Sequence record: PX393109.1
DNA: 64,000 nt
Reading direction: 5' to 3' (one strand)
Source of the DNA: a phage
Part shown: positions 25,137 to 47,911 of the stretch, in pieces
Layout: every line of letters begins with the position of its first letter
Position numbering within the stretch: the stretch's first letter is position 1
Translations under genes and position numbers: made by a program
The notes under the pieces: generated by a model
Seen by the model: the letters and a program-made list of their open reading frames with translations, nothing else
Told to the model about the DNA's origin: nothing
Database searches by the model: none

Positions 25137-25516
25137 TGTCTCATATGACCCGAGAAGAAATCGTATTGATGGTGGCTAAGGTGTGTCACGAAGCTAATCG
25201 TGCATACTGCCATTCTATCGGAGACTTCACCCAATTAAGCTGGGAAGCAACATCCGATGAAATAAAACAGTCGGCTATTGATGGAGCGTATAACTGCTTA
25301 CACAATAACCGTATCAGCCCAGAAGAGTCCCATGAATTCTGGGTTAAAACTAAAAAGGAGCAGGGCTGGAAGTATGGAGAAATCAAAGATCTCGCAGCTA
25401 AGACGCACCCGTGTATGGTTCCATATTCACGGTTGCCGGAAGAGCATCGAGTCAAAGATCACCTCTTCACCAGCATCTGCGCAGCATTCATTAAACAGTA
25501 CAAAAGGGCATCATGA
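25136..25516 (+). CDS. RyR-domain-like protein
   Basis: [20 protein letters not shown]...[20 protein letters not shown] resembles the bacterial/phage RyR-domain consensus. Confidence 0.45.
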
Positions 25517-25983
25517 TGACCGTAGTTCAAGTAAAGAAAACTATTAACTGGGACGACTCTCTGGAGTTACCGAAATACGCTAAAGCTGGTGATGCTGGTC
25601 TTGATCTTCGTGCGATGATTAAGACTGACGAAATCGATAAAATCGCTGTAAATCCTGGCGAAACTATCCTGGTCCCTACCGGTCTAGCGATCAACATCGG
25701 CGATCCGAACATCGCTTCTGTGATTCTTCCCCGCAGCGGCCTCGGCCATAAAAATGGCATCGTACTGGGTAACTTGGTTGGTCTTATCGACTCCGGCTAT
25801 CAAGGAGAACTGATGGTGTCTGTGTGGAACCGTAGTAACGAATCTTTCGTTATTAACCACGGCGACCGTATCGCTCAAATGGTGTTTCTTCCCGTTATCC
25901 ATCCAGAGCTCCAGCTTGTGGATAAATTCTCTGATGTTTCTGAACGTGGCGACGGTGGGTTTGGCCATTCCGGGATTAAGTAA
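25513..25983 (+). CDS. dut: dUTP diphosphatase (dUTPase)
   Basis: [44 protein letters not shown] and DRIAQMVF motifs. Confidence 0.9.
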
Positions 25984-26013
25984 TCCTGGGGTAGTTAGAC
26001 TACGGTAATTACT

Positions 26014-34339: not shown

Positions 34340-35794
34340 TTAACTTGCCCAGGTACCCTGAACAGTATCCATCTCCCAGTAACCGGAGATAGCACAAACT
34401 AAGCGTAACCAGGATCCCTTATCCGAGTTGGAAATAGTGGCTTTCCCATTACGGAAGAGATCTGTACCACCAGTTTTTACTGATACGCTGTAGTTGGCAC
34501 CTACAAGAACATCATAGGTCATACCAGGAACAGCGACTGGCAGGGTAACGGTAACAGCAGAAGTGGCACCATCGGTAGTGCAGATAGCACCGGTATCAGC
34601 TGCGGTAAGAGTTACATTAGCTGTAGACGTGATGATCTTCTTAAGAGCACCAGTCATTACACCATCTACTATCTTGATGGTATCCTTACCATTCTGGGTC
34701 AGGACTACTGATCCATCGCCTTTATGGGTTACCTTAGAAGTAAGAGTAGGTCCGTGATAGTAGGTATGAATGATATCATAGCCAGTATTCACTGCATCGT
34801 ATCGAAGAATATGATCCTCTGATGCTCTCTTACCGAAGTGGTAATCGACACCTTCAACTATGGTATCTCGGTTCCATGCGTGAGTCTGGGAAGAGGCTAC
34901 CACACGATAACGAGATTCAGCTCCGCGAAGAACATGCCAGTCACGGTTAGAGTCATCGCTCATACCCGATTCCCAGATCTTAGTTCCGCTTACGCTGTAA
35001 GATACCTTAGCTCTGGCTAACCCGTTATTACTGTTAAGGTTAAGGTTAGCGTTGGACGCAGACGAGATAATTAAACCATCAGTAGAATTACTGATGAATC
35101 TCACTGCAGCCGTCCATGAACTACCGTCCCATCCAGACATATCCAGAATCTGGACACCAGGCTTGATGGTTAAATTAGCGAGGGTATACTTAACACCAGG
35201 GTCGATTATAGCCAGACCAGTGGTGATAGTGGTAAGCATATCCTGAACCTGGCCAGTAGAGTCGGTGAGTTTATCAGGAACAGCACCGAATTCAGTAGCT
35301 CGAAATTCTTTGCTACGACGGACTCTTACCCAACCATTCACTACGTCTTTACTATCAGATGCTATGGAGTCGTTTTCTGTTTTAACTCTGAACTCACCAC
35401 CACCAGGGGTACCCTCCCCGAAGTAGCCTTTCACTATCACTCTGTCCCCATCTTTAGGAGTGATAGTTTTCAGATCTTCTACAGAGTTTACCTGACCAAT
35501 GTAGCGCCAGGAAGTAGAAGACCCGAACATTGAAATAATGAAGTCTACTGCATTAGTCTGGGCGAAGATCTCGTATCCAGCTTTAAGAGTAGTTTGTTCG
35601 GCATCGGCATACGGAGTTTCACCGTCGGTGGTGTGGGGGATATCCCCCACCCACTTAACCAACACCTTCTTACCATCAGTGCGCACAAATCTGAGAATGC
35701 AGTGGTTACCGTTTAGATAGATACCAGCCGCATAGTCACCTTTGTACTTAAGGCTGCTTAACTGCAGACTATCTGGCAATTGGGTGGACATCAA
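34340..35794 (-). CDS. tail fibre / tailspike protein (484 aa)
   Basis: In the receptor-binding locus; Gly/Ser/Thr-rich. Confidence 0.55.
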   Translation of the reverse strand: MMSTQLPDSLQLSSLKYKGDYAAGIYLNGNHCILRFVRTDGKKVLVKWVGDIPHTTDGETPYADAEQTTLKAGYEIFAQTNAVDFIISMFGSSTSWRYIGQVNSVEDLKTITPKDGDRVIVKGYFGEGTPGGGEFRVKTENDSIASDSKDVVNGWVRVRRSKEFRATEFGAVPDKLTDSTGQVQDMLTTITTGLAIIDPGVKYTLANLTIKPGVQILDMSGWDGSSWTAAVRFISNSTDGLIISSASNANLNLNSNNGLARAKVSYSVSGTKIWESGMSDDSNRDWHVLRGAESRYRVVASSQTHAWNRDTIVEGVDYHFGKRASEDHILRYDAVNTGYDIIHTYYHGPTLTSKVTHKGDGSVVLTQNGKDTIKIVDGVMTGALKKIITSTANVTLTAADTGAICTTDGATSAVTVTLPVAVPGMTYDVLVGANYSVSVKTGGTDLFRNGKATISNSDKGSWLRLVCAISGYWEMDTVQGTWAS

Positions 35795-35815
35795 GAATCT
35801 CCTCAGTTTAATCTA

Positions 35816-38437
35816 TTAAACTGTCTTAAAGGCTGGCGTATCTACGGAAGTTAATACTGCGCCATCAGGAACGTTAGACTGAAGTGCTGGGTACACATCA
35901 AAGTAATAATTACCACCATTGACATAACCACTGCGGACGATAGTACCGACGTAATCAGCGCCATCCGCACCACCACCTCCTGCTATTTTAACCTTACATC
36001 CGGCAGTCTTATAATACTGGCCAGTCCAGTTAAGGTTAGTCTTAGAGCGAATAGAGTTAGATCCAGAAGTAGCGGCAGCGACAGTTTCGTTGGAGTAGAA
36101 CAGAGCTCCAGGAGCAGTCACAGTAAACATAGTTCCGTCACTAGCAACAATAGTGTCGCCAGCCAGCAGAGCCATGCCATAAGGAGTACCGGTCTTGGTA
36201 TGGTAAATCACACCGTTCTGACGCCATGCTGGAGTACCACGGTAATGAGTCGCGGTAGTGGTCTTCTGAATAGGGAAGTTACAATCAGAGACCTCCAGAG
36301 TATCCACCGTGATGTTCTGGACAGTAACGTTAGCCGCACCGGTATTAGGATCAAGGCATTTCATGTTGGAGATGTTAGCAACCATCCACTTGTTACGGCG
36401 GTAGTTATCTCGAGCATCACCAGACGTGTATCGGAAGTCGAGAATGATTTTCTCAGCTGACCAGTCCGAGAGACGATACTCGGATGCCATACCCTGGAGA
36501 GATATGGTGGTAGCTTTGATATTCTTCATCTCGACAGTAGAGTTCAGAGTATCGGTAGTACATACCTCAACATGAACAGTACCAGTGATATTTACGTTAC
36601 GAATACGGATATTACGATGAGCGAAGGTATAGGCATTACTCACTGTACCCCACAGGAAGCGAATCATTTCCTCAGTACCATTAACTGGGGAGCCGATTAC
36701 GCCATCCACATCGATATCCTTACAACCGTAGGCGATAAGGCCTCCAGTATCCAGACCTACACCAGTTGACTTATTGGCATCTGGGTAAATCTCGATGTCT
36801 CGGATAGTGATGTTGCGGCATTTCTCCATATGGATACACTGCTTAGCACCCTTAACCTTAACGTTACTGATTACCACGTCTGACATATACTCGGAATCTG
36901 GAGCAGTCAGAGAGTAGTTACCAGTACCAGCCAGACCAATTGCAATACCCCAGTTGGCGTTACCAGTGCTAGTTGCGTCGACATTATCTACAGTGATGTT
37001 ATCGATTCTGGTATTGGTATCTGCTACTGCCAGGTTAATCTCAATAGGGTCGCTCTTCATGTCGAAGAACTGCAAGTTCTGCAGCAGAGTCGCAGTGAGC
37101 GGCTTGGAGGATGCAGGACTACCCTGACGGAGGTAACCATAATTACAGCGACGCATAATACCGTTAGTGACGAACAGCTGGCTATTAGCCGCTAATTGCT
37201 GACACAGCAGAGCAGCAGTCGCAGAACAGTCATTAATCTCGAACTGGTCGAGTTTAAAAATACCGTTTATGTGACGAATACCGCATTTGCTAAGGTTCAG
37301 CTTAGTTATGTCAGTATCACCATTAACCAGCAGCTGTGAACTAGCACCGGTACCAACTATGGTTAGGTTCTCGATCACTACACCGGAGATATCCACCGAT
37401 TGGTTAGCGATCTTGTAAGTACCCATACCCATAAGCTTAAGACCATAAGTCTTAGCCAGAGTAACAGCGGAGCGAAGAGCTGCTGTATCGTCCGTAGTAC
37501 CGTCGCCTTTAGCTCGAGCCATTTCTGGGGTGATGTATCGAATACCATCAGCCACCGTGCCACCATATCTCAGATAGACAATAGCAGCACCAGTAGTTTC
37601 GCCAGCAGTCATGAGCTCTGACTTAAGAGCACCAGAACCTACAGGAATCCACTTACCAGTCCCCTGTTCAGACTGAGATGGCTCCGGATCTCCATAATTA
37701 ACAACTTTAGGAAGAACACCATCCCATTTATAATACTCCCCATTTACTGAGAAGCTTACAGTCTGGACTCGGGTAGTGAGAGTCAGGCTCTGACCTTCAG
37801 ACAGATCAGTAAGTTTATAATTAACGAAACCTACTTTTTCTGAGATCTCTCTGGTAAGGCTATCGATGCGATCCTGGGTAACGCTAAGAGCATCACGAGA
37901 GTTCAGCTCGGCAGTCACCAGGACGCCCTTCGACAGCTTAATCTTAGTAAGAGTGATCTTGCGACTAATAACATCGATAGTGTAATCTTCTACGCGAGTA
38001 AGGCGGACACCACCTACGAATAGACGTACGCTGGTAAAGGAATAAGGAATATTAAACTCGAATTCCCCATCCTCCTGTACCTCGTAACTCCACTCGATAC
38101 CGCTCTGTACTCCTCCAGTCCAGTAGGATTCTTCGTAGAAGTTACCAGTAGTGGTAAACGGTACAGGACCAGTCCAGTAGTACAGCAGATTATCATATCT
38201 GACATACTGGCGGTCGTTCTCGATCACCATTCCGGAGGCATAGTTACCGAGGATATACATAGACTGACCAGCAGTCTGTTGCAACTCGTTAACGTTGCCT
38301 ATTGTTTCGGCAAGAGTCTCGTCTAATACTTTCTGCTGATTTTCTAACTCTCGAATATCGAGAGTCTGGTTATCATGCTGATAAGTATTAAGAGGAGCTC
38401 CGCCTAGTTCGCTAAATAACTTAGAACGACCGCCCAT
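35816..38437 (-). CDS. tailspike with right-handed beta-helix (pectate-lyase-like) domain
   Basis: Repetitive N/G/T-rich beta-helix-type coils; N-terminal region shares the YYWTG.P motif with other fibres. Confidence 0.6.
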   Translation of the reverse strand: MGGRSKLFSELGGAPLNTYQHDNQTLDIRELENQQKVLDETLAETIGNVNELQQTAGQSMYILGNYASGMVIENDRQYVRYDNLLYYWTGPVPFTTTGNFYEESYWTGGVQSGIEWSYEVQEDGEFEFNIPYSFTSVRLFVGGVRLTRVEDYTIDVISRKITLTKIKLSKGVLVTAELNSRDALSVTQDRIDSLTREISEKVGFVNYKLTDLSEGQSLTLTTRVQTVSFSVNGEYYKWDGVLPKVVNYGDPEPSQSEQGTGKWIPVGSGALKSELMTAGETTGAAIVYLRYGGTVADGIRYITPEMARAKGDGTTDDTAALRSAVTLAKTYGLKLMGMGTYKIANQSVDISGVVIENLTIVGTGASSQLLVNGDTDITKLNLSKCGIRHINGIFKLDQFEINDCSATAALLCQQLAANSQLFVTNGIMRRCNYGYLRQGSPASSKPLTATLLQNLQFFDMKSDPIEINLAVADTNTRIDNITVDNVDATSTGNANWGIAIGLAGTGNYSLTAPDSEYMSDVVISNVKVKGAKQCIHMEKCRNITIRDIEIYPDANKSTGVGLDTGGLIAYGCKDIDVDGVIGSPVNGTEEMIRFLWGTVSNAYTFAHRNIRIRNVNITGTVHVEVCTTDTLNSTVEMKNIKATTISLQGMASEYRLSDWSAEKIILDFRYTSGDARDNYRRNKWMVANISNMKCLDPNTGAANVTVQNITVDTLEVSDCNFPIQKTTTATHYRGTPAWRQNGVIYHTKTGTPYGMALLAGDTIVASDGTMFTVTAPGALFYSNETVAAATSGSNSIRSKTNLNWTGQYYKTAGCKVKIAGGGGADGADYVGTIVRSGYVNGGNYYFDVYPALQSNVPDGAVLTSVDTPAFKTV

Positions 38438-38561
38438 TGGTGATCTCCATAAAAATATTACATGATGTACAAATACTTAGTAACTTTAGGGTAGTGATTA
38501 GTTTAAGTTAAATCTTAAATTGAAGCCTCTCCCTTCTACTACCTACGGTAAAAGTCTTTAT

Positions 38562-41549
38562 TTACTGCTTCTTTTCAAGATCGGAAAGTCTGGCTTCGAT
38601 TCTTTCCAGTCTTCTTCTCTGGAATGCTGCCTCAGCAAAGAAAATTCCATCAGGTCTCACTCCCCACTCCTCACCCTCTTCGTGAATAACCACCTCGGTG
38701 TATACAGGCTCTTCCGTGGTAGTGACATTACCCTCCTCGTCAGTATGTTCAACGACTTCATAGTGAGAGAATACCATGTCTGTCATGCGAGGATATTTGT
38801 CGTAACACAGAACAGCATATCGGCAATCCGTGCTGTCCTCATCCATCAGACCGTGAGCAATGAATACATCACGGATCTGCTGAGCAATTACGCCAAAATG
38901 GATTCTAGCTTCATTCCCTTTTAGGTGTACAGAATCCAACCACTGGTACATAATGTAATGAACGTCTCCCCAAGCATCTAAAAAAGCATCATCAAAAACT
39001 ACCGGCTCTGTTTTCTTCTCTCCGTTAGAAGTAACAATAGGGTTGCTTCCGAGGTATGCAGTGGTGAAACGGTTGCTAGGACCACCAAGCGCAATGACGT
39101 TATCGTTATAAGGCTTAACATCAGCACTCCGAAACAGGTGCTCATCTCCGTTGTAAACTATCCTGCGAGAAGCTGTGTTACTCGCACCGTAAAGCGTAAT
39201 CTGTGCACCAGTAGAAGAACTGGTGCCGTCTCCTCCGCAAAATATGATACGCTGTCCTGCGGGGTTATTAGTCGGTACAGATTTCCCGATAAACCCATAC
39301 TCACCCTCCATTAAAACTTCAGAGCGAATGTTACTACTGGTGCTGGCTCTAATGACCACATGACCTAAACCCAAATCCCCTGTAAATTCCATTGGCGCAG
39401 GAACAGTGCGAGTTCCATTCGTATCAAAAAACACTGGAACCGCTCTGTCAGGTACAGCACCATACCTGAAATCACGAGAAACGCGATTGTCTGGACCGAT
39501 TTTCATTTTGTAACAATACAAATCTGAGGGATGACCGTCTGATTTGAATGGGTCCTTCTCTAAGTTATCTCCATACGTCCATGGGTTCAGATGGTCTTCC
39601 CCACCGAACATGTAATAGATATAACTATCTTTCACGACAACCGATCCGACACCGACTCCAGAGTTAACAATACCACCCTGATAAATCTGATCAGAGATGT
39701 TTACCCACTGAGTATTATCCAAGTTCCAGGTGTCGAGGTTCACTCGCGTGTAGAACGTTCGTGGGTAAGAACTGAAATATCGTTGATCCGGTGCGTTTGC
39801 TTCCCACTCGTTGTCTGCGCGTTCAGTACCGAAAAGAATCAGTTCGTTTCCTACCTTAGCGAATGGCAGGGTAGAGTGGTGTACGTTATTCGGAAACCTC
39901 AGCGATTGCCAGGTAATCCCCAGGTCGTTACTGCGATGAAGAGAACTACCAAGACGATCAGACCTGGTTCCACGGGTTACAACATAAAGAACACCGTCAA
40001 AATACTTAACGCAGGGTTCTGACGCATCTGGCTCATATTCAGCAGGAATACGTCGTTTCTGGTAAAGACCAGGATTGTTGAACGCATCAGGGAAATACAA
40101 CATACCTACTTCACGCGGAGCAACATCACCCTGGTGGTACCCCATCATGAATGAGTCGTTATTGATGGCGGTAAAACTATGAACCTCGGTAACCATAGGG
40201 ATCAATCCAAGACTGGTTTTACGCCATGGTGACTGATGGAACGATGTCCCCATATGCCAGCGGTTGGTAGAGTTATTTTGGTCGAATGCTTGTTGATTTG
40301 GTGTGGTAACTGTGAACGTGTTGCGGTCAATAACTGAAGTTACAGTCATATTCCCAGAAACTCCAGTCACCCCAGAGTTTGAGAAGTTAACAAAATCCCC
40401 AGCAAAAAGACCGTGTTCGGGGATGGTAATTACAGCCACAGACTGGTTGGCCGCTTTTGTTATACCACCTGTCAGATGGTAGTTACGGGACATGGGGCGA
40501 TCCCACAACTCACAGGTCACTAATGCGTTAGCTGCTAAAGTACGGGTCTCAATCATCGCAAAGAGACGATTACGCATCACTCCCATACTCATACAGTGGT
40601 AGTTAACTGTTGGGTAATTAGGGTGTAGGTCAGTTAGCCACTCCGGGGTCGTCCAGGTCTGCCCGTCATCTCCTGAGCGAACCCAGGATACATGAAGCCT
40701 GCTAACCCCGTGCCGATCGCTAGCCATGAACGGACAGTAAATAACATCGTCGTAAACGAACGCTTTATCCTGAGGCCAAGCATTGTAATAAGGGGTATCG
40801 GTTATTTTAATTAACTCGCCCTGAACAAACTCGTCAGACACATAATAAAGCGGCTGGCCAGGAATACGCTCATAAACGAAACGAGTGTTGACGAATCTGC
40901 TAATATCTGGAAGCGCGGATACTTTATAGGTTCTACCGTTACCATTAATTTTCTGACCTACTGGAGCAGCGCTTAACAGATTATTAAGAGCCACAGTATC
41001 ATCGACTAATCCATCACCTTTAGCTCCCCAACCACGAGGGTCGAAAATGTCACGCCATCGAGCAATCTGCAATTCGGGGTATTTTGTTGCACCATCCGGG
41101 TCTGATATTTGCCCTCGCAGTGCGGTATCACCAATACTAGCCCAAGCATCAGAAGAGACACCACCAGTAGTTAGCGGTGATGAGTTAGCATATACAGTTT
41201 TAGGGAACACACCACCCCACACGTAGCACTGGCCACCATCAATATGCCAGACAGCATCCTTTTTACTGTTTACTGTAGCACCTTCTTCAAAAGTGCCAAC
41301 AAGAGTTAGTCCTAAGTCACCTAGTAATAACTTCCACTGTTCTTTAGTATTATTAATTATCGATAAATTAGACTTTTTTAAAATGGAGGTTCTAGTAGCT
41401 AATTGGGTTATTGGATGATTAATATGTCCGGATACTGGTTCATCCTTAGAATTAGTAACTAGTTGACCGCCTTCTGCCCTATCCGTCTTTTCTAAGCGGC
41501 GAATAGTCTCGGGCCAAGTTGACCCTTCTACAATTGGATTATAAGACAT
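38562..41549 (-). CDS. sialidase-like (BNR/Asp-box) tailspike with C-terminal intramolecular chaperone domain
   Basis: Asp-boxes SGDDGQTW and SNDLGITW; C-terminal HFGVIAQQI and terminal coiled coil resemble an S74-type auto-processing chaperone; N-terminal CYVWGGVFPKTV motif. Confidence 0.6.
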   Translation of the reverse strand: MSYNPIVEGSTWPETIRRLEKTDRAEGGQLVTNSKDEPVSGHINHPITQLATRTSILKKSNLSIINNTKEQWKLLLGDLGLTLVGTFEEGATVNSKKDAVWHIDGGQCYVWGGVFPKTVYANSSPLTTGGVSSDAWASIGDTALRGQISDPDGATKYPELQIARWRDIFDPRGWGAKGDGLVDDTVALNNLLSAAPVGQKINGNGRTYKVSALPDISRFVNTRFVYERIPGQPLYYVSDEFVQGELIKITDTPYYNAWPQDKAFVYDDVIYCPFMASDRHGVSRLHVSWVRSGDDGQTWTTPEWLTDLHPNYPTVNYHCMSMGVMRNRLFAMIETRTLAANALVTCELWDRPMSRNYHLTGGITKAANQSVAVITIPEHGLFAGDFVNFSNSGVTGVSGNMTVTSVIDRNTFTVTTPNQQAFDQNNSTNRWHMGTSFHQSPWRKTSLGLIPMVTEVHSFTAINNDSFMMGYHQGDVAPREVGMLYFPDAFNNPGLYQKRRIPAEYEPDASEPCVKYFDGVLYVVTRGTRSDRLGSSLHRSNDLGITWQSLRFPNNVHHSTLPFAKVGNELILFGTERADNEWEANAPDQRYFSSYPRTFYTRVNLDTWNLDNTQWVNISDQIYQGGIVNSGVGVGSVVVKDSYIYYMFGGEDHLNPWTYGDNLEKDPFKSDGHPSDLYCYKMKIGPDNRVSRDFRYGAVPDRAVPVFFDTNGTRTVPAPMEFTGDLGLGHVVIRASTSSNIRSEVLMEGEYGFIGKSVPTNNPAGQRIIFCGGDGTSSSTGAQITLYGASNTASRRIVYNGDEHLFRSADVKPYNDNVIALGGPSNRFTTAYLGSNPIVTSNGEKKTEPVVFDDAFLDAWGDVHYIMYQWLDSVHLKGNEARIHFGVIAQQIRDVFIAHGLMDEDSTDCRYAVLCYDKYPRMTDMVFSHYEVVEHTDEEGNVTTTEEPVYTEVVIHEEGEEWGVRPDGIFFAEAAFQRRRLERIEARLSDLEKKQ

Positions 41550-41624
41550 TTAATCACCCTATGATATTGTCAACACTTCGTTTATCATAACCCATGTACA
41601 AGTTGCACCTGCTATTGTAGCTAT

Positions 41625-42248
41625 TTATTTAGCTCGAACGATGTACAGAAATGCTACGTTCTTTGGTACAATTTCATTGGTGCCGTTTCGTCCATATACT
41701 GAAGATGATCGTGATGCCAAGAAGTTAATTACTGTAGGATACTTAGAGGTATCGTTAATATCCATTGGAAGTCCAGCTAATCTATAATACTGACCTTTAG
41801 TATTAGTACCGTAGAGTGATCCAGAACCAAATCCTGATGCTGTGCTTTCCCAGATTGATGCATTCTCAGTATTAACAGTCCTGAACCACCCAAATATTTC
41901 TGGGGCAGAATCTGACTGACCAGTATTGATCGTTCGCCCTGCATCCATGCCTCTGCCATCATCATAACCACGGATAAATTGTGCACGTAGATCTTGTAAC
42001 TGATTAGTTGTCCATAGCTTAGCCAGTTCTGGGTATGTTTCTGGATCGAATACCTGACCATTCATCTTCAGAAATCGCATACCTTTCATTGAGGTGAATA
42101 TCTCATCAGGCATCTTGGTAGGATGGACCCATGGGAATGGTACTCCGATTAATGGAGCTCCATTACCGATACCTAGCTGGCGTAGATATGCTTCAACTTC
42201 AGCATCTGTACCTTCGTTCATTAAGTACTTAAGACGAGTGAGGCTCAT
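41625..42248 (-). CDS. stand-alone tail-fibre tip paralog (collar-like domain)
   Basis: GVPFPW..PTKMPDE...KGMRF...FIRGYDDGRGMDAGRTI is homologous to the C-terminus of the 480-aa fibre. Confidence 0.55.
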   Translation of the reverse strand: MSLTRLKYLMNEGTDAEVEAYLRQLGIGNGAPLIGVPFPWVHPTKMPDEIFTSMKGMRFLKMNGQVFDPETYPELAKLWTTNQLQDLRAQFIRGYDDGRGMDAGRTINTGQSDSAPEIFGWFRTVNTENASIWESTASGFGSGSLYGTNTKGQYYRLAGLPMDINDTSKYPTVINFLASRSSSVYGRNGTNEIVPKNVAFLYIVRAK

Positions 42249-42323
42249 AATGACACCTCACTTACAATCATGATACTATCTGGAGTCATGTAATTAATTG
42301 ACATAACTACCCCTTATTAAATA

Positions 42324-42932
42324 TTACTTGGCAGGTGCTTCTGGCCATACGATAGTATCAGGATCAGTAGTTTCAATAGCTTCTACTTCCTCTTGATAAT
42401 CTAGCCATAAATTGAACTTGACTTTATCAGCATCGCTCAGTCGACCCATTGCCAGTTTGGATGGCCACTGCTTACTATTGATATAAGCATTAGCATCTTC
42501 AATCAGTGCTACTTTCTTAGCATCAGCTGCAGCTACCTTAGATTCGTACTCGGCAACCTCATCCAGTACCCAAGCACTCGTATCTTCATCCCACTTATCA
42601 TGGATTGAAGTAGGTGCGATGATCGTATAAGTGTCATCGATAGGACCAAGCTCCTGGATAGTGACCTTAGTTTGATCATCTTTTGAGTAAACTTCTACTC
42701 CACGGTGATCTTCTACGTATTCCCACTTCTTGGTATCTTCATGATATACTCGTGCATATCCTTCACGTTCTTCAAGTACTGGAACGATGGTGGAGTGAGC
42801 TGGTACTGATACGCCTACGTAGATAAACTCTTCACGATTAAACGTGAACTCATGAGTGTTCTCATTGTAGTTATAAACCATCACCTTACCAGAAGTGGTG
42901 GCAAAACCTTGATCGTTAAATTCAATACTCAT
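42324..42932 (-). CDS. tail fibre assembly protein (Tfa-like chaperone)
   Basis: C-terminal KVKFNLWLDYQEEVEAIETTDPDTIVWPEAP is typical of the Tfa family; directly downstream of a fibre gene. Confidence 0.75.
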   Translation of the reverse strand: MSIEFNDQGFATTSGKVMVYNYNENTHEFTFNREEFIYVGVSVPAHSTIVPVLEEREGYARVYHEDTKKWEYVEDHRGVEVYSKDDQTKVTIQELGPIDDTYTIIAPTSIHDKWDEDTSAWVLDEVAEYESKVAAADAKKVALIEDANAYINSKQWPSKLAMGRLSDADKVKFNLWLDYQEEVEAIETTDPDTIVWPEAPAK

Positions 42933-44374
42933 TATAATGCCCTTACAATAATGTTGTATGCGACGTTACGTGGACGTGTCTCATTCGGAAGATTATCAAC
43001 TATGTTAGTAGTCCTCATATTCTTACTAAGATCATCCAACTCACCACGAGCTCCGGCATGTAGCGTGACATTGTAAGAATTACCTGGTAGCTGAACTGGA
43101 CTGCCATTAGTTTTGATCTGAGTATTATGAATATGTTCCTGAATAGATTGTGATTGACTACTCAAGATAGTTCTTCCTGCATCAACGTTTCTACCGTCAT
43201 CCCAACCACGTATAAATTCACCACGTAGATCAGGTAACTTATTAGTAGGATAAACAGTAGCTAACTTAGGATACAGTTCAGCATCGAAGTTATCACCACG
43301 AGCTTGGATGAAGTGCATACCTTTCAGTTCAGGATATACTTCATCCGGCATCTTATCCGATGGCCAGTAGAAGGGTACACCAATCATCGGTACACCGAAT
43401 TCATACTTGGTCTTATCCATCTTACCAGCTAATGTGACCAGTACTTGCTGCAGATCTGCCACACCAGCATTAGCGATACCTGCGAATAACTTGACTACCC
43501 AGCATCCAATAGCCGCATTAGGACGTACTTCATCAGTACCGTCACGACCATAAGATGGACTAGATACTGAAGCATCAATTCTTATATCTAGTACTCCACT
43601 ATTAGTACTAGATACAGCATTAGACATTTTACCATTATACTCAGCGATTATCGATGAGTTAGATGGTACACCTGATCCGAAGATGTTAACTATATTACTA
43701 ACTGAGCCAGTAATATTAGGTGCACCATTCTGTAGTACTTTACCGGTACGAGCTGTATCACCATTATCACCACGGATGTGCAATCCCTTTATGGAATCAC
43801 TCAGCTTACCATTTAGGTCAGGTACTCGAAAAGTAGTCGTACCATCACCAGTAGTATAACAGTGACGCTTAGTAGGATCAGCTACCCAGTCAGCTTCAGG
43901 ACATACTTGTACTAGTCCAGCATTAATTGCTGCCCAAGTATCAGGATACAAGATACGTGAGAAGATACCACCATCAGCTGCTACGAATCCACCCCATAAT
44001 GGTGACCCTAATAACTTACGAGAGGATAACCACTTAACTTCCAATAAGTTACCAGCACCCATTTGGTCGATCGACCAAGGTACCCAGTTAGAATGGGTGA
44101 TAGGTGCGTTTGCAATATCTACTGGGAAGTTACCCTTCCATGAATATGCACGCTGACGATCAAGAGATACTACTAGATCGAATCGGTTAGATAAGATACC
44201 ACCGAACTCAAAAGTAGCTGCCAGATTGTAACCACAATCGGCTAAGTCATTCGCCCACAACTCGATGATGTTATCTTGGTTGTTCTTAATCTTAGGAGTC
44301 AATTCATTACGAAGTTCACCAGCACCATCAGATGGATTGAAACCAATATAACCACCCATATTAGTTCTCCACAA
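42932..44374 (-). CDS. tail fibre protein with C-terminal collar-like domain
   Basis: GVPFYWPSDKMPDEVYPELKGMHF...LPDLRGEFIRGWDDGR; N-terminal YSWKGNFP motif. Confidence 0.65.
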   Translation of the reverse strand: MWRTNMGGYIGFNPSDGAGELRNELTPKIKNNQDNIIELWANDLADCGYNLAATFEFGGILSNRFDLVVSLDRQRAYSWKGNFPVDIANAPITHSNWVPWSIDQMGAGNLLEVKWLSSRKLLGSPLWGGFVAADGGIFSRILYPDTWAAINAGLVQVCPEADWVADPTKRHCYTTGDGTTTFRVPDLNGKLSDSIKGLHIRGDNGDTARTGKVLQNGAPNITGSVSNIVNIFGSGVPSNSSIIAEYNGKMSNAVSSTNSGVLDIRIDASVSSPSYGRDGTDEVRPNAAIGCWVVKLFAGIANAGVADLQQVLVTLAGKMDKTKYEFGVPMIGVPFYWPSDKMPDEVYPELKGMHFIQARGDNFDAELYPKLATVYPTNKLPDLRGEFIRGWDDGRNVDAGRTILSSQSQSIQEHIHNTQIKTNGSPVQLPGNSYNVTLHAGARGELDDLSKNMRTTNIVDNLPNETRPRNVAYNIIVRAL

Positions 44375-44702
44375 TGGAAAGAGTCAGGTCTACCATGTTC
44401 GAGTTATTAGAAGTATCTACAGCGGATGCTGAAGCTACTACCTGATCACCATCCATGAGAATTACCTTAGCAGAATCGATATTCAATGCCGACTTCTGAG
44501 GAAGATTAGTGTCTTTACCTAGCAGGTAGACATCATTTCCAGATGCTGGTTTAATCTTAAGCTGGAACTGAGCTGCAGCATCTGTAACACCATTATGGGC
44601 TGCCAGGATTCCAACGATTATAGCACCAGTAGCCGGAGTAGTATAAATGGTAGATTCAGATTTAGTTAGCGTAGCGCTAGCTCGTTTAAATTTAGCTGCC
44701 AT
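44361..44702 (-). CDS. small structural protein
   Basis: ORF within the fibre locus. Confidence 0.45.
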   Translation of the reverse strand: MAAKFKRASATLTKSESTIYTTPATGAIIVGILAAHNGVTDAAAQFQLKIKPASGNDVYLLGKDTNLPQKSALNIDSAKVILMDGDQVVASASAVDTSNNSNMVDLTLSIVEN

Positions 44703-44711
44703 GAGTATTCC

Positions 44712-45629
44712 TTAGAAAATTAGAGCATTTATGAAAGCTGCATTTTCTACTTCGTTTATGCGAGTAGTTAGAGCATTCTCTACACTATCTAACTGGGCAA
44801 CAGTAGCATAGCGATACAGAGCACCAGTCTTAACAGGAACCCATTTACCATCACCAATACCGTCCGCTTCAGGAGTACTGTTAGCATTTACGGTCTTCGG
44901 AAAATCGCCATCCCAGCGATACAGAACACCATCATGCATAACTATGCAGTGGTTCTGACGTAGAGTAAAGCCAGTACTGAAGTCGCCTCCAGTAAAGTAC
45001 TTATACTCTTCTAATTCGACGGCGTAAGCAGATAAGTCTACTCCACCATTGCTATGTACGAACCATCCGCCAGCTGTTAAGCTAACGATAGTTGATCCCT
45101 CTGGAATACCCATCGGCAAACGATAGGCTTCCTGGGAGGCTAAGTCATACAATACACGAAAGCCGTCGAGAGGACGACCTACTTTCATGAACTGGACTTC
45201 TTCGGTCTTAACTCGGAATGCCCGAGCAACCATGTCCACTTGACGTTGGTTTACCGGAATCACCTCAGTCCATAACCCATCAGGATTACTTTCTGGGTCG
45301 AAAATCCCACCGGTATCTTCTGGAGATGAGTTCTCGGCGACCGATTTGGGGAAGGAGCCTAGCCAGTAATACCACTTGCCAGACACCTCGTCATACACAC
45401 CATCCCCAGAGTCCTGGAGATCAAACCCTATCCCGAAAGTACCTACTGGGTTAATCCCATAGATATCCAGGAATGAATTCAATGCCAGACTACGGAGATA
45501 TGTAGTTCTGTCGGTAAGATTCTTAATGGGTACGTTATCAATACCGTCATCACCACCCGACACTTTGTCAGTACGTTCGAAGGTATAGATGTCCTCTACG
45601 TACTGATTTTTACCCTGATAAGTACCCAT
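44712..45629 (-). CDS. tail fibre protein (paralog family, internal repeat)
   Basis: N-terminus FERTDKVSGGDDGIDNVPIKNLTDRTTYLRSLA; two copies of the W.G.FPK.V...S.PE motif. Confidence 0.6.
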   Translation of the reverse strand: MGTYQGKNQYVEDIYTFERTDKVSGGDDGIDNVPIKNLTDRTTYLRSLALNSFLDIYGINPVGTFGIGFDLQDSGDGVYDEVSGKWYYWLGSFPKSVAENSSPEDTGGIFDPESNPDGLWTEVIPVNQRQVDMVARAFRVKTEEVQFMKVGRPLDGFRVLYDLASQEAYRLPMGIPEGSTIVSLTAGGWFVHSNGGVDLSAYAVELEEYKYFTGGDFSTGFTLRQNHCIVMHDGVLYRWDGDFPKTVNANSTPEADGIGDGKWVPVKTGALYRYATVAQLDSVENALTTRINEVENAAFINALIF

Positions 45630-45641
45630 TTCGATATCCTA

Positions 45642-46409
45642 TTATATAGTGTAAGAGAACGTGTATCTCAGAGACAGCTCGTCTGTACTACCCTGATTAA
45701 TCTCAAGAACAGCCACACTACTGTCCACATCGGCATAAATCTGACCAGCTACTATACCAACGCCAACTCCTGAGAGGCTTGAGTCATCTGAGAAGGTAGC
45801 GTTAATAGGTAAGCCAATTCCTATTTTCATTACTTCTCCGGCATCGGTAGCAGAAGCAGTGATCTTGCCGTTAACAGTAACCACATTCCCTAGTCGGGTA
45901 TATATGGCTTCTGCTATGTCTAGATTGGAGACATTCTCAATCTTAACGAAGGCTGGATTGTACTTACCGCTATACAGATTACCAGGAGCAGCTGCTGTAG
46001 GGATCTTAACCCCAGCACCCAGGTCTAGAACACTGAGATCAATAGCCACCCACTTACCGCTAGGATTGGTGATCGGATCATAGATACCACCAGTAGTTTC
46101 TGGCTTAGAAGACTTAACCACTACTTTAGGTAGAGATCCTGTCCACTTAAACCACTTACCGGAGATCTCGTCGAAGACCGCATACCCAGCCACGTTAATC
46201 TGGAATCCTTGTTTGAACGAGCCGAGAGGATTAAGATTGAACAGCTTAAGGAATGTAAAGTCAGCAAGAGCCTTAAGATAAAACGTACGATCCGACAGCT
46301 GGGTAAGAGGTACGTTATCAATGCCGTCCGGGCCACCTTTAACCACATCACTTTCTTCAAATTGGTACACCTGAGCATGAAAGTTAAATGCCCCAGTATA
46401 ATTGCTCAT
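45642..46409 (-). CDS. tail fibre protein (paralog family)
   Basis: N-terminus FEESDVVKGGPDGIDNVPLTQLSDRTFYLKALA, homologous to the downstream 305-aa protein. Confidence 0.6.
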   Translation of the reverse strand: MSNYTGAFNFHAQVYQFEESDVVKGGPDGIDNVPLTQLSDRTFYLKALADFTFLKLFNLNPLGSFKQGFQINVAGYAVFDEISGKWFKWTGSLPKVVVKSSKPETTGGIYDPITNPSGKWVAIDLSVLDLGAGVKIPTAAAPGNLYSGKYNPAFVKIENVSNLDIAEAIYTRLGNVVTVNGKITASATDAGEVMKIGIGLPINATFSDDSSLSGVGVGIVAGQIYADVDSSVAVLEINQGSTDELSLRYTFSYTI

Positions 46410-46417
46410 CTAATCAC

Positions 46418-47911
46418 CTATAGATTGGCATCGCGATAGTAAGTATCATCGTGACTAATAACGTCGTTGTACAGAGGTTCGAATCCGTAACGAGTTACTT
46501 TCTCACCGCGATTATAAGTTCCGTCATGGAGAATAGTCCCATCCCGTTTCTCTAAGAGTCTTTCGGTCTTATGAGTGGTTAGGAACATAGCTTCTCGGTA
46601 GCTAGACCAATGAGTATACCAATCGTATACTTTGATCTTTTTAATGAACTCCTGGTGAAGATAACGAGTACCATCCAGCAGGTAAGACCCATTAATGAAG
46701 TCCATACCTTCGAAGTGTAGCCAGTCTATTTCTGGCAATCCGTAATAAGCCGTCCCGCTACGCTGAGTTTGGCCATCACGATGAGGCTGAATTACATACA
46801 GGCTATCGTATTCGAAGCTCTGATAGTTAGTTAAATCGTAACCCTCAGCGTAATTACCACCTTCATATCCGTAGTTTACTTGCTCTACTCCCTTGGATAA
46901 GTGGTCTATCTTCCTATCCATATAATTCTCGAACCCAAACTCTGATAGGTCGATATCCAAGAACAGGAAGATCTCACGCAGCATAGAGGACTTAAACTCC
47001 AACCCAGCTACCAAGTCTGATAAGTCCAGTAAGGACTCAATCTCAGTAGTTCTGGAATCGGCGCTTAAATCTACATTAAACTTAGCCAATGAGCTATAGA
47101 GTCTGCTGTGAGCAGTGTCGGTATTCTGGAGATCTAAGTATGTACCCATATCCAGAATAAGACCATTATCTAGCTTGATAGTTCTCCTATCGAATACAGT
47201 CAGATAAGAGTTCATCAGACGATCTGAGAAGCGATCAATCAACACTTCAAGAGGTACTTCCATCTCCGACATAATATCGAGACAGAATCGCAGCCATAGA
47301 GTATCCGAAATATCTGGGACTCGTATACCTACTGAACCATCCAGGATTGATGTGTCTAGCAACCAACTGGTGTCCAAGGAGGCGCTTCCGAGAGATTCAA
47401 CGCCATCTGGAAGACAGTTAGCGATACCGGTAAGTCTTACGCATATCGGAAATACCTTACGCGACAGACGATCAATTAGCTTAATCTGCCGAGTAGACAA
47501 GATCACGTTCTTAGGAAGCAGGATGGTTGCCAGTGAGCAGCCTTCCGGAGTCTTCTGATACAAGATCTCTTCTATCTCTACATTTATCAGCTTAAAGATA
47601 AGATCAACCCCATCCTTCATACCCTTGTTATCAAGGATACTTGGGAGGAGTACAGATACTGAGTTTTGGTCTACCTCTGTAGTTATGAGATCTGCTAAGT
47701 CTGGTTGACCCAGTAGCTCCAGGATGTAAATCGGATCATAAGACGGTTTACTAGGATCATAAATCGCCGTATTTTTATCCATCTCTGGAAAGACAACAGT
47801 CTCTAGACCATGATCCAGCACCTGCGAGAAGAACTTATATAACTCGTTCCCTCTAAGGTTAGGAGAGAAGTAATCTAGAGTGTTGAACTTAGCCATACTC
47901 ATACCCCGCAT
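46418..47911 (-). CDS. baseplate protein (gpI / Mu gp48-like position)
   Basis: Synteny: immediately after the J-like gene and before the fibres. Confidence 0.45.
   Translation of the reverse strand: MRGMSMAKFNTLDYFSPNLRGNELYKFFSQVLDHGLETVVFPEMDKNTAIYDPSKPSYDPIYILELLGQPDLADLITTEVDQNSVSVLLPSILDNKGMKDGVDLIFKLINVEIEEILYQKTPEGCSLATILLPKNVILSTRQIKLIDRLSRKVFPICVRLTGIANCLPDGVESLGSASLDTSWLLDTSILDGSVGIRVPDISDTLWLRFCLDIMSEMEVPLEVLIDRFSDRLMNSYLTVFDRRTIKLDNGLILDMGTYLDLQNTDTAHSRLYSSLAKFNVDLSADSRTTEIESLLDLSDLVAGLEFKSSMLREIFLFLDIDLSEFGFENYMDRKIDHLSKGVEQVNYGYEGGNYAEGYDLTNYQSFEYDSLYVIQPHRDGQTQRSGTAYYGLPEIDWLHFEGMDFINGSYLLDGTRYLHQEFIKKIKVYDWYTHWSSYREAMFLTTHKTERLLEKRDGTILHDGTYNRGEKVTRYGFEPLYNDVISHDDTYYRDANL

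What the first reader, a model, noticed from the sequence alone, without database searches (positions are those of the whole stretch)
41625..44374. Orphan fibre-tip paralog downstream of the Tfa chaperone gene
The 207-aa ORF (41625-42248) is homologous to the C-terminal collar-like domain of the 480-aa fibre (42932-44374) but has a different distal end. It lies just after the Tfa gene on the same strand. This looks like a duplicated or alternative receptor-binding tip cassette, a substrate for host-range switching by recombination, unlike the invertible arrangement in Mu.
Basis: seen in the sequence. Interest (0 to 1): 0.5.

Follow-up and report, generated by a model that had tools for sequence, protein, structure and literature searches.

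The report
Stand-alone mini tail-fibre tip gene
The 207-codon ORF after the tail-fibre chaperone gene is an intact, selected gene for a very short receptor-binding "mini-fibre"; its variable head belongs to a pool swapped over evolutionary time with long fibres and prophage fibre cassettes, which is interesting but fits known phage tail-fibre modularity.

Summary
The 207-aa ORF (41625-42248, minus strand) is 40% identical over 177 aa to the C-terminal domain of the long fibre, but its head differs. It follows the Tfa gene on the same strand.

It is not an orphan remnant. It has a strong Shine-Dalgarno site, dN/dS of 0.13 against its IME392 orthologue, and an N-terminal 30 aa conserved across paralogues while synonymous sites are saturated. 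It belongs to a rare family: 12 clusters among 5.8 billion proteins, all from ~112-116 kb E. coli phage contigs or short metagenomic contigs. Relatives carry one to three such genes in tandem after fibreB-tfaB.

Each protein reads as helix hairpin, T4 gp37/gp12-type collar, hypervariable head, then a closing strand. Heads are shared between short genes, long-fibre distal domains and invertible prophage cassettes, so cassette exchange is real on an evolutionary scale.

Within this genome the paralogues share at most 12 identical bases, and there is no invertase and no flanking repeat. Programmed or frequent switching is therefore unlikely.

My reading is an accessory receptor-binding protein served by the shared Tfa. 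Virion attachment is inferred, not shown.

Each short gene also has a translationally coupled leader ORF. The window's long fibre is itself a fibreA::fibreB deletion hybrid.

The parts
41625..42248 (-). Gene for the 207-aa stand-alone mini-fibre (short tip protein)
   Evidence: ORF. 96% identical orthologue in phage IME392, annotated 'putative tail fibers protein'. dN/dS 0.13 against IME392. Profile match to the T4 gp37 tip 2XGF, E=1e-17.
42159..42248 (-). Codons 1-30: conserved N-terminal peptide (MSLTRLKYLMNEGTDAEVEAYLRQLGIGNG), predicted helix-turn-helix; putative neck or docking element
   Evidence: M1-L6, L9, M10, E12-D15, Y21, L22, L25 and G26 are invariant in 11 family members. dN/dS is 0.02-0.15 with saturated dS. 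AF2 helices at 3-12 and 15-25, pLDDT 77-85. Homologous to the last shaft segment of prophage long fibres.
41919..42158 (-). Codons 31-110: collar core (..IGVPFPW..NGQxFD..YPELA..LQDLRAQFIRGYDDGRGMDAGR)
   Evidence: 40% identical to the long fibre's distal collar. AF2 pLDDT 70-92. Foldseek best hit 2XGF, E=3e-5. Pfam Collar scores 16.9 bits, below the 24-bit cut-off.
41679..41918 (-). Codons ~111-190: hypervariable head, the presumed receptor-binding insertion
   Evidence: Replaced by unrelated sequence in L002 s205 and L088 s192, although their flanks are 91-97% identical in DNA. Clusters with the first-domain ('APNITG'-type) heads of the long fibres. AF2 pLDDT below 50.
41625..41678 (-). Codons 191-207 plus stop: conserved closing strand (..EIVPKNVAFLYIVRAK) that returns to the collar
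   Evidence: P195, N197 and R205 are invariant. Aligns with the C-terminal strand of T4 gp37 and gp12. AF2 strand 201-205, pLDDT 88.
42254..42261 (-). Shine-Dalgarno GTGAGGTG, 5 nt before the ATG
   Evidence: Sequence. An equivalent Shine-Dalgarno precedes all 12 related short genes.
42245..42304 (-). Leader uORF of 19 codons (MSINYMTPDSIMIVSEVSL*) with its own Shine-Dalgarno (AAGGGG); its TGA overlaps the ATG of the 207-aa gene
   Evidence: The same arrangement occurs before short genes with unrelated spacers; joint shuffle probability ~8e-5, or ~3e-8 when a Shine-Dalgarno is required.
42324..42932 (-). Tfa chaperone (TfaB type, 202 aa); start overlaps the fibre stop (TAATG)
   Evidence: PF02413, E=1.7e-18. 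90-98% identical across six genomes despite unrelated heads. 35% identical to the Tfa paired with a collar-type cassette in prophage L022. Overlap shown.
42932..44359 (-). Long fibre (475 aa from ATG 44359): a fibreA::fibreB hybrid with two collar-type domains in series
43545..43580 (-). Recombination junction of the hybrid fibre: fibreA-like upstream, fibreB-like downstream, in the 'DASxxSxSYGR' motif
   Evidence: blastn boundaries and four-way DNA alignment.
42980..43138 (-). Distal head of the long fibre (HxH type, ..SIQEHIHNTQIKTNGSP..), orthologous to the head of a short gene in L003
   Evidence: 82.7% DNA identity to L003 10210-10526. 85% protein identity over the whole head. 68% over 153 aa for P0008 against the fibre.
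44361..44702 (-). 113-aa gene that marks the upstream edge of the horizontally mobile fibre module
   Evidence: High-identity DNA shared with L003 begins exactly here, and outside the module only a 68% dUTPase-region match is shared. No Pfam family.

Best explanation
The 207-aa ORF encodes a functional, independently translated accessory receptor-binding protein, a 'mini-fibre'.

Anatomy. A 30-residue helix hairpin (the last shaft segment of a P2/Mu/lambda-type fibre) is followed by a T4 gp37/gp12-type collar, an inserted hypervariable head that would contact the receptor, and a C-terminal strand that closes the collar.

Expression and folding. It is transcribed with the fibre-tfa genes. It is translated from its own Shine-Dalgarno, coupled to a short leader ORF. 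It is probably folded by the upstream Tfa, which tracks the collar class of tip rather than any one head.

Attachment. The invariant N-terminal peptide most likely trimerises the protein and docks it onto another component of the same fibre module. That would give the virion an extra specificity beside the long fibre and the two tailspikes.

Evolution. New specificities arise when a head is replaced by recombination in the conserved collar and closing-strand flanks. The donors are other phages and prophage fibre cassettes. This is an evolutionary process, not a programmed switch.

Shown: gene integrity, selection, family membership, domain homology, head exchange, absence of an invertase. Inferred: virion incorporation, docking role of the peptide, Tfa dependence, receptor binding.
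For: - Homology to the fibre tip, E=2e-32. Profile hits to the T4 gp37 tip 2XGF (E=1e-17), the phiTE short tail fibre 9CUY (E=3e-16) and T4 gp12. Foldseek best hit 2XGF.
- AF2 gives confident N-terminal helices, collar and closing strand, with a low-confidence head.
- Shine-Dalgarno plus ATG are present before all 12 family genes.
- Against IME392 there are 21 synonymous and 10 non-synonymous changes, dN/dS 0.13. The N-terminal 30 codons have dN/dS 0.02-0.15 with saturated dS across paralogues.
- The family has only 12 clusters at 90% identity among 5.8 billion proteins. Among 1.84 billion 50%-identity representatives, four match the profile from residue 1, and P0003 only lacks its first codons in the gene call.
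- Relatives carry 1-3 tandem copies after fibreB-tfaB.
- Three different heads sit on 91-97% identical flanks. Heads are shared with long-fibre distal domains and with a prophage invertible cassette.
- Tfa is 90-98% conserved despite at least four unrelated distal heads. It is the type paired with collar tips in a prophage.
- L003 has a very different baseplate (24% identity) and no tailspike genes at the corresponding position in the stretch fetched. It shares only the fibre module, short genes included, so any partner is probably inside the module.
- There is experimental precedent for a ~29-aa conserved N-terminal docking peptide on secondary receptor-binding proteins (PMC13352976).
Against: - There is no direct evidence that the protein is in the virion. 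No proteomics exists for this phage group; only two papers mention IME392, both in passing.
- No docking partner was identified. The N-terminal peptide has no counterpart elsewhere in the window.
- That peptide is homologous to an internal shaft segment of ordinary long fibres. Its conservation might reflect folding or trimerisation only.
- The fibreB N-terminal domain is weakly similar to N-terminal domains of a Klebsiella depolymerase and is one possible dock. It has been deleted from this window's phage.
- The head could not be modelled, and no receptor can be named.
- One relative (L087) has a frameshifted orthologue. That may be an assembly error or real decay.
Confidence: 0.55

Rival explanations
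1. Recombination reservoir. The ORF serves mainly as a spare tip cassette that is recombined into the long fibre to switch host range, and its own product is not a virion component.
For: Heads are shared between short genes and long-fibre distal domains in related genomes. Conserved flanks bracket the variable head. The window's fibre is itself a recombinant.
Against: - A reservoir needs no Shine-Dalgarno, no ATG and no conserved 30-aa N-terminal peptide. All three are maintained, with dN/dS 0.02-0.15.
- Paralogues in one genome share at most 12-17 identical bases. This looks like avoidance of intragenomic recombination rather than use of it.
- Recombination between direct repeats deletes the intervening genes, here including tfa.
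- There is no site-specific recombinase.
Confidence: 0.12
2. Stranded gene. In relatives the mini-fibres dock on the N-terminal domain of fibreB. In this phage the fibreA::fibreB deletion removed that domain, so the 207-aa protein is still made but can no longer be mounted. The gene would then be intact but functionally orphaned.
For: The window lacks the fibreB N-terminus, tfaA and the fibreA distal domain that are present in IME392, L003, L005 and L086. The fibreB N-terminus resembles tandem N-terminal domains of a Klebsiella capsule depolymerase (9K4A, E=1.2e-5). Such domains serve as branching sites in other phages (PMC13352976).
Against: The 9K4A match is weak (per-domain E 0.15 and 2.9). 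The gene shows no decay, with only 10 non-synonymous differences from IME392 and all motifs intact. The dock is unknown and could equally be the 113-aa protein, the fibreA part or the retained fibreB linker.
Confidence: 0.15
3. Soluble, non-virion protein. A free trimeric tip released at lysis binds receptors on debris or neighbouring cells, acting as a decoy or as superinfection control.
For: There is no recognisable virion-attachment domain, only ~30 residues before the collar. It is translated separately through a leader ORF that could set a distinct expression level.
Against: No precedent is known to me for collar-type tips acting this way. The gene sits inside the structural fibre module and moves with it between phage backbones. 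The invariant extreme N-terminus suggests a specific protein contact.
Confidence: 0.1
4. Degraded duplicate or pseudogene, or a chance ORF.
For: It is short and lacks the N-terminal two-thirds of a normal fibre. Pfam Collar scores below its cut-off (16.9 against 24 bits).
Against: There is a full-length orthologue with dN/dS 0.13, a conserved start and Shine-Dalgarno, 12 family clusters of the same architecture, and strong profile matches to solved fibre tips.
Confidence: 0.02

Closest known systems
T4 gp37 long-tail-fibre tip (PDB 2XGF) and T4 gp12 short tail fibre: collar domain with inserted needle/head
   Same: The collar core and the C-terminal closing strand align (E=1e-17 to 2XGF, weak to 1OCY). 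Foldseek's best hits are 2XGF and gp12 in 5IV5. The topology is the same: conserved collar, inserted variable part, return strand.
   Different: gp37 and gp12 are long proteins anchored by large N-terminal parts, whereas this protein has only ~30 residues before the collar. The 207-aa head lacks the HxH metal-binding motif; the window's long fibre has one (EHIHN). The T4 tips use gp38/gp57A, not a lambda-type Tfa (from my own knowledge).
Invertible tail-fibre cassettes of Mu (G segment), P1 (C segment), e14 (P region) and the p15B Min multiple-inversion system
   Same: The tip domains are homologous. Prophage cassettes beginning at '..NLGLGEG' match residues ~24-206. One such cassette carries the same head as a short gene of this phage clade (60% identity). 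The cassettes pair with the same Tfa type.
   Different: Here there is no invertase, the gene is on the same strand, it has its own ATG and Shine-Dalgarno plus ~25 extra N-terminal residues, there is one shared Tfa rather than one per cassette, and there are no crossover-site repeats.
Branched receptor-binding-protein systems with a conserved N-terminal docking peptide (KP32 gp38, K1-5, G7C gp63.1, CBA120 TSPs)
   Same: A short N-terminal peptide is conserved across proteins whose receptor-binding parts differ. The genome is rich in TSP1/Gp66-type N-terminal domains: the 255-aa and 305-aa proteins and both tailspikes. A 29-aa peptide is experimentally sufficient for mounting in KP32 (PMC13352976).
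   Different: There is no sequence similarity to those peptides, and the partner is unidentified. The cargo is a fibre tip rather than a depolymerase tailspike. The peptide derives from a fibre shaft segment.
Mosaic tail-fibre evolution by recombination at conserved motifs (P2 H, lambda Stf, T-even gp37/gp38 loci)
   Same: Head replacement occurs between conserved flanks and sequences are shared across unrelated phages. HK97 Stf and P2 H tips match at 35-43%.
   Different: The exchange pool here includes stand-alone short genes in tandem arrays. A whole fibre module, short genes included, moves between phage backbones.

Membership tests
Collar-type tail-fibre tip (Pfam PF07484 Collar; T4 gp37/gp12 type) | Significant match to the collar domain model or to solved collar domains | tested here: met
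   Pfam Collar alone is below its cut-off (16.9 against 24 bits). A family profile hits 2XGF at E=1e-17 and 9CUY at E=3e-16. Foldseek gives 2XGF at E=3e-5. PHROG tail-fibre families match down to E=7e-37.
Collar-type tail-fibre tip (Pfam PF07484 Collar; T4 gp37/gp12 type) | Core motif LPDLRGxFxRGxDxGR and C-terminal closing strand RPxNxAxxYIxR | tested here: met
   LQDLRAQFIRGYDDGRGMDAGR and EIVPKNVAFLYIVRAK are present. R88, F91, R93, D96, G98, P195, N197 and R205 are invariant.
Collar-type tail-fibre tip (Pfam PF07484 Collar; T4 gp37/gp12 type) | Homotrimeric assembly | not testable with these tools
   Only monomer prediction was available.
Invertible fibre cassette (Mu G / P1 C / e14 P / p15B Min) | Adjacent Gin/Cin/Pin/Min serine invertase | tested here: not met
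   tblastn of a prophage invertase against the 64-kb window gave no hit better than E=7.
Invertible fibre cassette (Mu G / P1 C / e14 P / p15B Min) | Alternative cassette in inverted orientation, bounded by inverted crossover sites | tested here: not met
   The gene is on the same strand. Only short, imperfect inverted repeats were found.
Invertible fibre cassette (Mu G / P1 C / e14 P / p15B Min) | Cassette has no start codon of its own and is read only after fusion to the constant part | tested here: not met
   It has its own ATG, Shine-Dalgarno and a conserved extra N-terminus. Prophage cassettes start at NLGLGEG without real starts.
Secondary RBP with docking peptide (branched RBP systems) | Short N-terminal peptide conserved among RBPs with different receptor-binding parts | tested here: met
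   Invariant residues are listed. dN/dS is 0.02-0.15 over codons 2-30.
Secondary RBP with docking peptide (branched RBP systems) | Partner protein with a T4gp10-like/XD branching domain encoded in the same genome | tested here: inconclusive
   TSP1/Gp66 N-terminal domains occur in the 255-aa and 305-aa proteins and in both spikes. However, L003 has short genes without those proteins. The fibreB N-terminus is weakly like the 9K4A N-terminal domains but is absent from the window.
Secondary RBP with docking peptide (branched RBP systems) | Physical binding to the partner and presence in the virion | not testable with these tools
   This needs proteomics, pull-down or cryo-EM.
Tfa-dependent fibre tip (lambda Stf/Tfa, P2 H/G) | Adjacent PF02413 chaperone gene | tested here: met
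   The Tfa lies immediately upstream (E=1.7e-18). It follows the long fibre, and no separate Tfa follows the 207-aa gene.
Tfa-dependent fibre tip (lambda Stf/Tfa, P2 H/G) | Folding of the tip requires that chaperone | not testable with these tools
   Inferred only, from Tfa conservation across unrelated heads and from the type pairing in a prophage.
Diversity-generating retroelement target | Template repeat near-identical to the variable region, plus a reverse transcriptase | tested here: not met
   blastn of the ORF against the whole window finds only the 74.5% collar paralogue. Heads differ wholesale, not at scattered positions.

The most novel reading that the evidence does not exclude
The short genes form a small combinatorial repertoire of mini-fibres. 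All would plug through the same invariant N-terminal hairpin into one site of a self-contained, horizontally mobile fibre module, giving a branched, multi-headed fibre served by a single Tfa.

Expression of each head would be gated by its translationally coupled leader ORF. In some relatives that ORF carries a G8-G10 tract that makes or breaks its reading frame. Which heads a virion displays would then be phase-variable.
Probability: 0.12. Interest if true: 0.7.

Novelty: new variant of a known kind. Interest (0 to 1): 0.4.

Why it matters
If the mini-fibres are mounted on the virion, this is a very compact way for a phage to add receptor specificities. It needs a ~200-aa protein with a 30-aa handle, one shared chaperone, and heads drawn from a pool that also feeds long fibres and prophage invertible cassettes.

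Such a handle-collar-head unit would be a convenient scaffold for engineering host range.

The data also give a clean natural example of head swapping at defined collar flanks, and of a deletion hybrid formed between two tandem fibre genes.

If instead the protein is not mounted, the strong selection on it would point to an unknown non-structural role for a fibre tip.

Tried and rejected
- AF2 with the 14-sequence alignment failed (pLDDT 37.7). A 39-sequence alignment gave a usable collar and N-terminus but no head.
- A degenerate DNA pattern for the N-terminal motif found nothing in IMG/VR or JGI metagenomes.
- The IMG/VR protein-guided scan returned only prophage long fibres and invertible cassettes, not the short family.
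- The promoter/terminator scan was no better than shuffles.
- Rfam found nothing in 35000-47000.
- No flanking direct repeats and no long shared words were found.
- An invertase was sought and not found.
- A DGR was considered and rejected.
- The N-terminal peptide has no second copy in the window.
- Literature on IME392 gave only passing mentions.
- The PDB code 9K4A could not be traced to a paper.
- A pseudogene or chance ORF is rejected on selection and conservation.
Full report
**1. The observation**

All genes in this region lie on the minus strand. In order they are:
- a 113-aa gene (44702..44361)
- the long fibre (44374 or 44359..42932)
- a Tfa chaperone (42932..42324; PF02413, E=1.7e-18)
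- the 207-aa ORF (42248..41625)
- an endosialidase tailspike (41549..38562)
- a second tailspike (38437..35816), which IME392 annotates as a 'putative colanic acid-degrading protein'

The 207-aa product aligns with residues 327-479 of the fibre at 40% identity (E=2e-32). It aligns weakly with the fibre's first collar-like domain. The middle 'head' parts of the two proteins are unrelated.

One detail differs. The fibre most likely starts at the ATG at 44359, behind a GGAG, giving 475 aa rather than 480 aa from the TTG.

**2. It is a real gene, not an orphan fragment**

- GTGAGGTG lies 5 nt before the ATG.
- The only close phage in INPHARED is E. coli phage vB_EcoM_IME392 (95% DNA identity). It has the same ORF at 96% protein identity.
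- Between the two there are 21 synonymous and 10 non-synonymous changes, dN/dS 0.13.
- A search of 5.8 billion proteins finds 12 clusters with the same full-length architecture, 176-211 aa.
- Among 1.84 billion 50%-identity representatives, four match the profile from residue 1. A fifth, P0003, is a gene call that lacks the first codons; its full ORF in L088 begins MSLTRL.
- The collar-tip domain itself has over 11,000 hits in that search.
- Family members come from ~112-116 kb phage contigs and a few short metagenomic contigs.
- In those genomes the order is 113-aa gene, fibreA, (tfaA), fibreB, tfaB, then one to three short genes in tandem, all on one strand.
- Residues 1-30 (MSLTRLKYLMNEGTD.E...YL..LG.G.G) are nearly invariant. 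Their dN/dS is 0.02-0.15 while synonymous sites are saturated.

A silent cassette or a pseudogene would not keep a start codon, a ribosome-binding site and a private N-terminal peptide under such selection.

**3. Anatomy**

- A family profile matches the T4 gp37 receptor-binding tip (2XGF, E=1e-17). It also matches the short tail fibre of phage phiTE (9CUY, E=3e-16; PMC11972413) and, weakly, T4 gp12.
- The match covers the N-terminal collar part and the very last strand. The structures' own long insertions fall in between.
- AF2 with 39 sequences gives two N-terminal helices (3-12, 15-25; pLDDT 77-85). It also gives a confident collar (31-100) and last strand (201-205), but no confident head (105-195).
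- Foldseek's best hits are 2XGF and then T4 gp12.

The protein therefore reads as helix hairpin, collar, inserted head, closing strand.

The hairpin is homologous to the last shaft segment of ordinary prophage fibres. For example, '..DIPEPALFVKNLGLGEGSA' in P0010 aligns with 'TDAEVEAYLRQLGIGNGAP'.

The 207-aa head lacks an HxH motif. It groups with the first-domain ('APNITG'-type) heads of the long fibres. The long fibre's distal head is of the HxH type.

**4. Evidence for cassette exchange**

- The window's long-fibre distal head (about 43138-42980) is 82.7% identical in DNA to the head of the short gene s183 of L003. L003's own fibreB matches the window only up to the collar. At protein level the heads are 85% identical.
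- The distal head of fibreB in L086 is homologous to the head of short gene s189 in L087 (48% identity).
- Three different heads sit on flanks that are 91-97% identical in DNA to those of the 207-aa gene: the window/IME392 head, L002 s205 and L088 s192.
- The head of L002 s202 (P0006) is shared with P0059 (60% identity overall). P0059 begins with the same 'MPVSRYLCIFINVGLGEG' as the invertible-segment ORFs next to the invertase in prophage L022.

Heads therefore circulate among short genes, long-fibre distal domains and prophage invertible cassettes. Breakpoints fall in the conserved collar and closing strand.

**5. Exchange is not programmed or frequent within this genome**

- The 207-aa gene and the fibre share at most a 12-nt identical word and 63% DNA identity in the collar core.
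- There are no flanking direct repeats, no invertase and no DGR-type repeat.
- In all six related genomes, paralogues share no identical word longer than 17 nt. This holds even where the encoded peptides are identical.
- Because the copies are direct repeats, recombination between them deletes what lies between, and the window shows such an event. Its long fibre equals fibreA of L005 up to ~43545 (91%). From ~43576 it equals fibreB (88-89%), with the junction in the 'DASxxSxSYGR' motif.
- Compared with IME392, L003 and L005, the window has lost the distal gp53-like domain of fibreA, tfaA and the N-terminal half of fibreB.

**6. The chaperone**

TfaB is 90-98% identical across six genomes, although their fibreB distal heads fall into at least four unrelated types. 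It is 35% identical to the Tfa that accompanies a collar-type cassette in prophage L022. TfaA resembles the Tfa that accompanies the gp53-like tip there.

The chaperone thus tracks the class of tip rather than the head. That makes it plausible, though unproven, that TfaB also serves the short proteins.

**7. Where the protein might attach**

L003 shares with the window only the fibre module, from the first base of the 113-aa gene through the short genes. Its baseplate protein is 24% identical to the window's, and tailspike genes are absent from the corresponding positions in the 20.5-kb stretch fetched.

The module therefore moves horizontally as a unit. Any partner of the short proteins is most simply sought inside it: the 113-aa protein, fibreA or fibreB.

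The N-terminus of fibreB is absent from the window. It is weakly similar to tandem N-terminal domains of a Klebsiella capsule depolymerase (9K4A, E=1.2e-5; per-domain values are weak).

[quoted passage not shown] Deleting the 29-aa peptide of KP32 gp38 abolishes mounting (PMC13352976).

The resemblance is functional only. No sequence similarity or partner was shown here. The peptide's conservation could also reflect trimerisation or folding alone.

**8. Leader ORFs**

The 207-aa gene is preceded by a 19-codon ORF (42304..42245) with its own Shine-Dalgarno. Its TGA overlaps the ATG of the 207-aa gene.

The same arrangement precedes the short genes of relatives, including ones whose spacers are unrelated in sequence. 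In shuffles the joint probability for four spacer types is about 8e-5, or 3e-8 if a Shine-Dalgarno is required. Two of the spacer types may be distantly related, so these figures are optimistic.

In L003, L005, L087 and L002 the first spacer carries a run of G. It is G8 in frame in L003 and G10 out of frame in L005. The window and IME392 lack this insert.

This suggests translational coupling and, in relatives, possibly phase variation. Assembly error in homopolymers cannot be excluded.

**9. Verdict**

The ORF is a functional member of a rare family of stand-alone collar-head tip proteins. It is most likely an accessory receptor-binding protein of the virion (confidence about 0.55 for the whole model). 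Confidence is much higher for the parts that were shown directly.

It is wrong as a description of the gene's present status.

The closest known systems are three:
- T4 gp37/gp12-type tips, for structure
- Mu/P1/e14/p15B invertible cassettes, for homologous tips under a different control logic (three defining features tested and not met)
- branched receptor-binding-protein systems with docking peptides, for a possible mode of attachment

I rate it a new variant of a known kind, of moderate interest.

Noticed in passing
window 42245-42304 (minus strand); L003 9211-9300; L005 ~9260-9350; L002 1-50: Every short tip gene has a 19-29-codon leader ORF with its own Shine-Dalgarno whose stop overlaps the tip gene's ATG (ATGA). 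In relatives the first leader contains a G8-G10 tract that keeps the frame (L003) or breaks it (L005, L087). The window and IME392 lack that ~30-nt insert.
   Followed up: partly
window 42932-44359, junction ~43545-43580: The long fibre is a fibreA::fibreB deletion hybrid. Relative to IME392, L003 and L005 it has lost fibreA's gp53-like distal domain, tfaA and fibreB's N-terminal half. Its first head matches L005 fibreA and its distal head matches a short gene of L003.
   Followed up: yes
window 41625-44703 against L003 4957-10552: The fibre module, from the 113-aa gene to the short genes, is the only high-identity DNA shared with L003. L003 has a very different baseplate and no tailspike genes in the stretch fetched. 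The module therefore appears to be horizontally mobile between phage backbones.
   Followed up: partly
window 44357-44374: The fibre ORF as listed starts at TTG 44374. An ATG at 44359, preceded by GGAG and used by the gene calls in relatives, is the more likely start (475 aa). The fibre stop and the tfa start overlap (TAATG at ~42932).
   Followed up: yes
L005 10634-10707: A third tip gene begins by ATGA overlap with the stop of s211. It encodes MKNVGLGEGSALPVGVPVPWPLATP..., typical of E. coli prophage fibre cassettes and lacking the family's N-terminal hairpin. The contig ends 71 nt later.
   Followed up: no
L087 1143-1678: An orthologue of the window's 207-aa gene sits in second position behind another short gene and is interrupted by a frameshift. 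This could be an assembly error or real decay.
   Followed up: no
window 41550-41624 and 38438-38561 (minus strand): The spacers before both tailspike genes share the word TTGTACAT (..CAACTTGTACATGGG.. and ..TATTTGTACATCATG..). This may be a phage promoter element. It is absent before the 207-aa gene, which is probably co-transcribed with fibre-tfa.
   Followed up: no
L086 435-3238: In this relative fibreA (gp53-like tip variant) is followed directly by fibreB with no tfaA gene between them.
   Followed up: no
L017, L018, L020, L028, L031, L076, L082 (IMG/VR prophage contigs): These contigs carry three to eight start-less copies of the homologous tip on both strands. That is the pattern expected of multiple-inversion (Min/shufflon-like) fibre systems. 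L022 shows a duplicated invertase and cassette, probably an assembly of two inversion states.
   Followed up: partly
window 25513-25984; whole phage group: IME392 is listed among phages with a YerA41-like DNA polymerase that were examined for 5-hmdU (thymidine hypermodification) genes (PMC12686479). The window has a dCTP-deaminase/dUTPase-like gene here that is 68% identical in DNA to the one in L003.
   Followed up: no
window 44361-44702: The conserved 113-aa protein at the head of the fibre module has no Pfam family and only a weak PHROG hit of unknown function. It is a candidate adaptor for the module.
   Followed up: no
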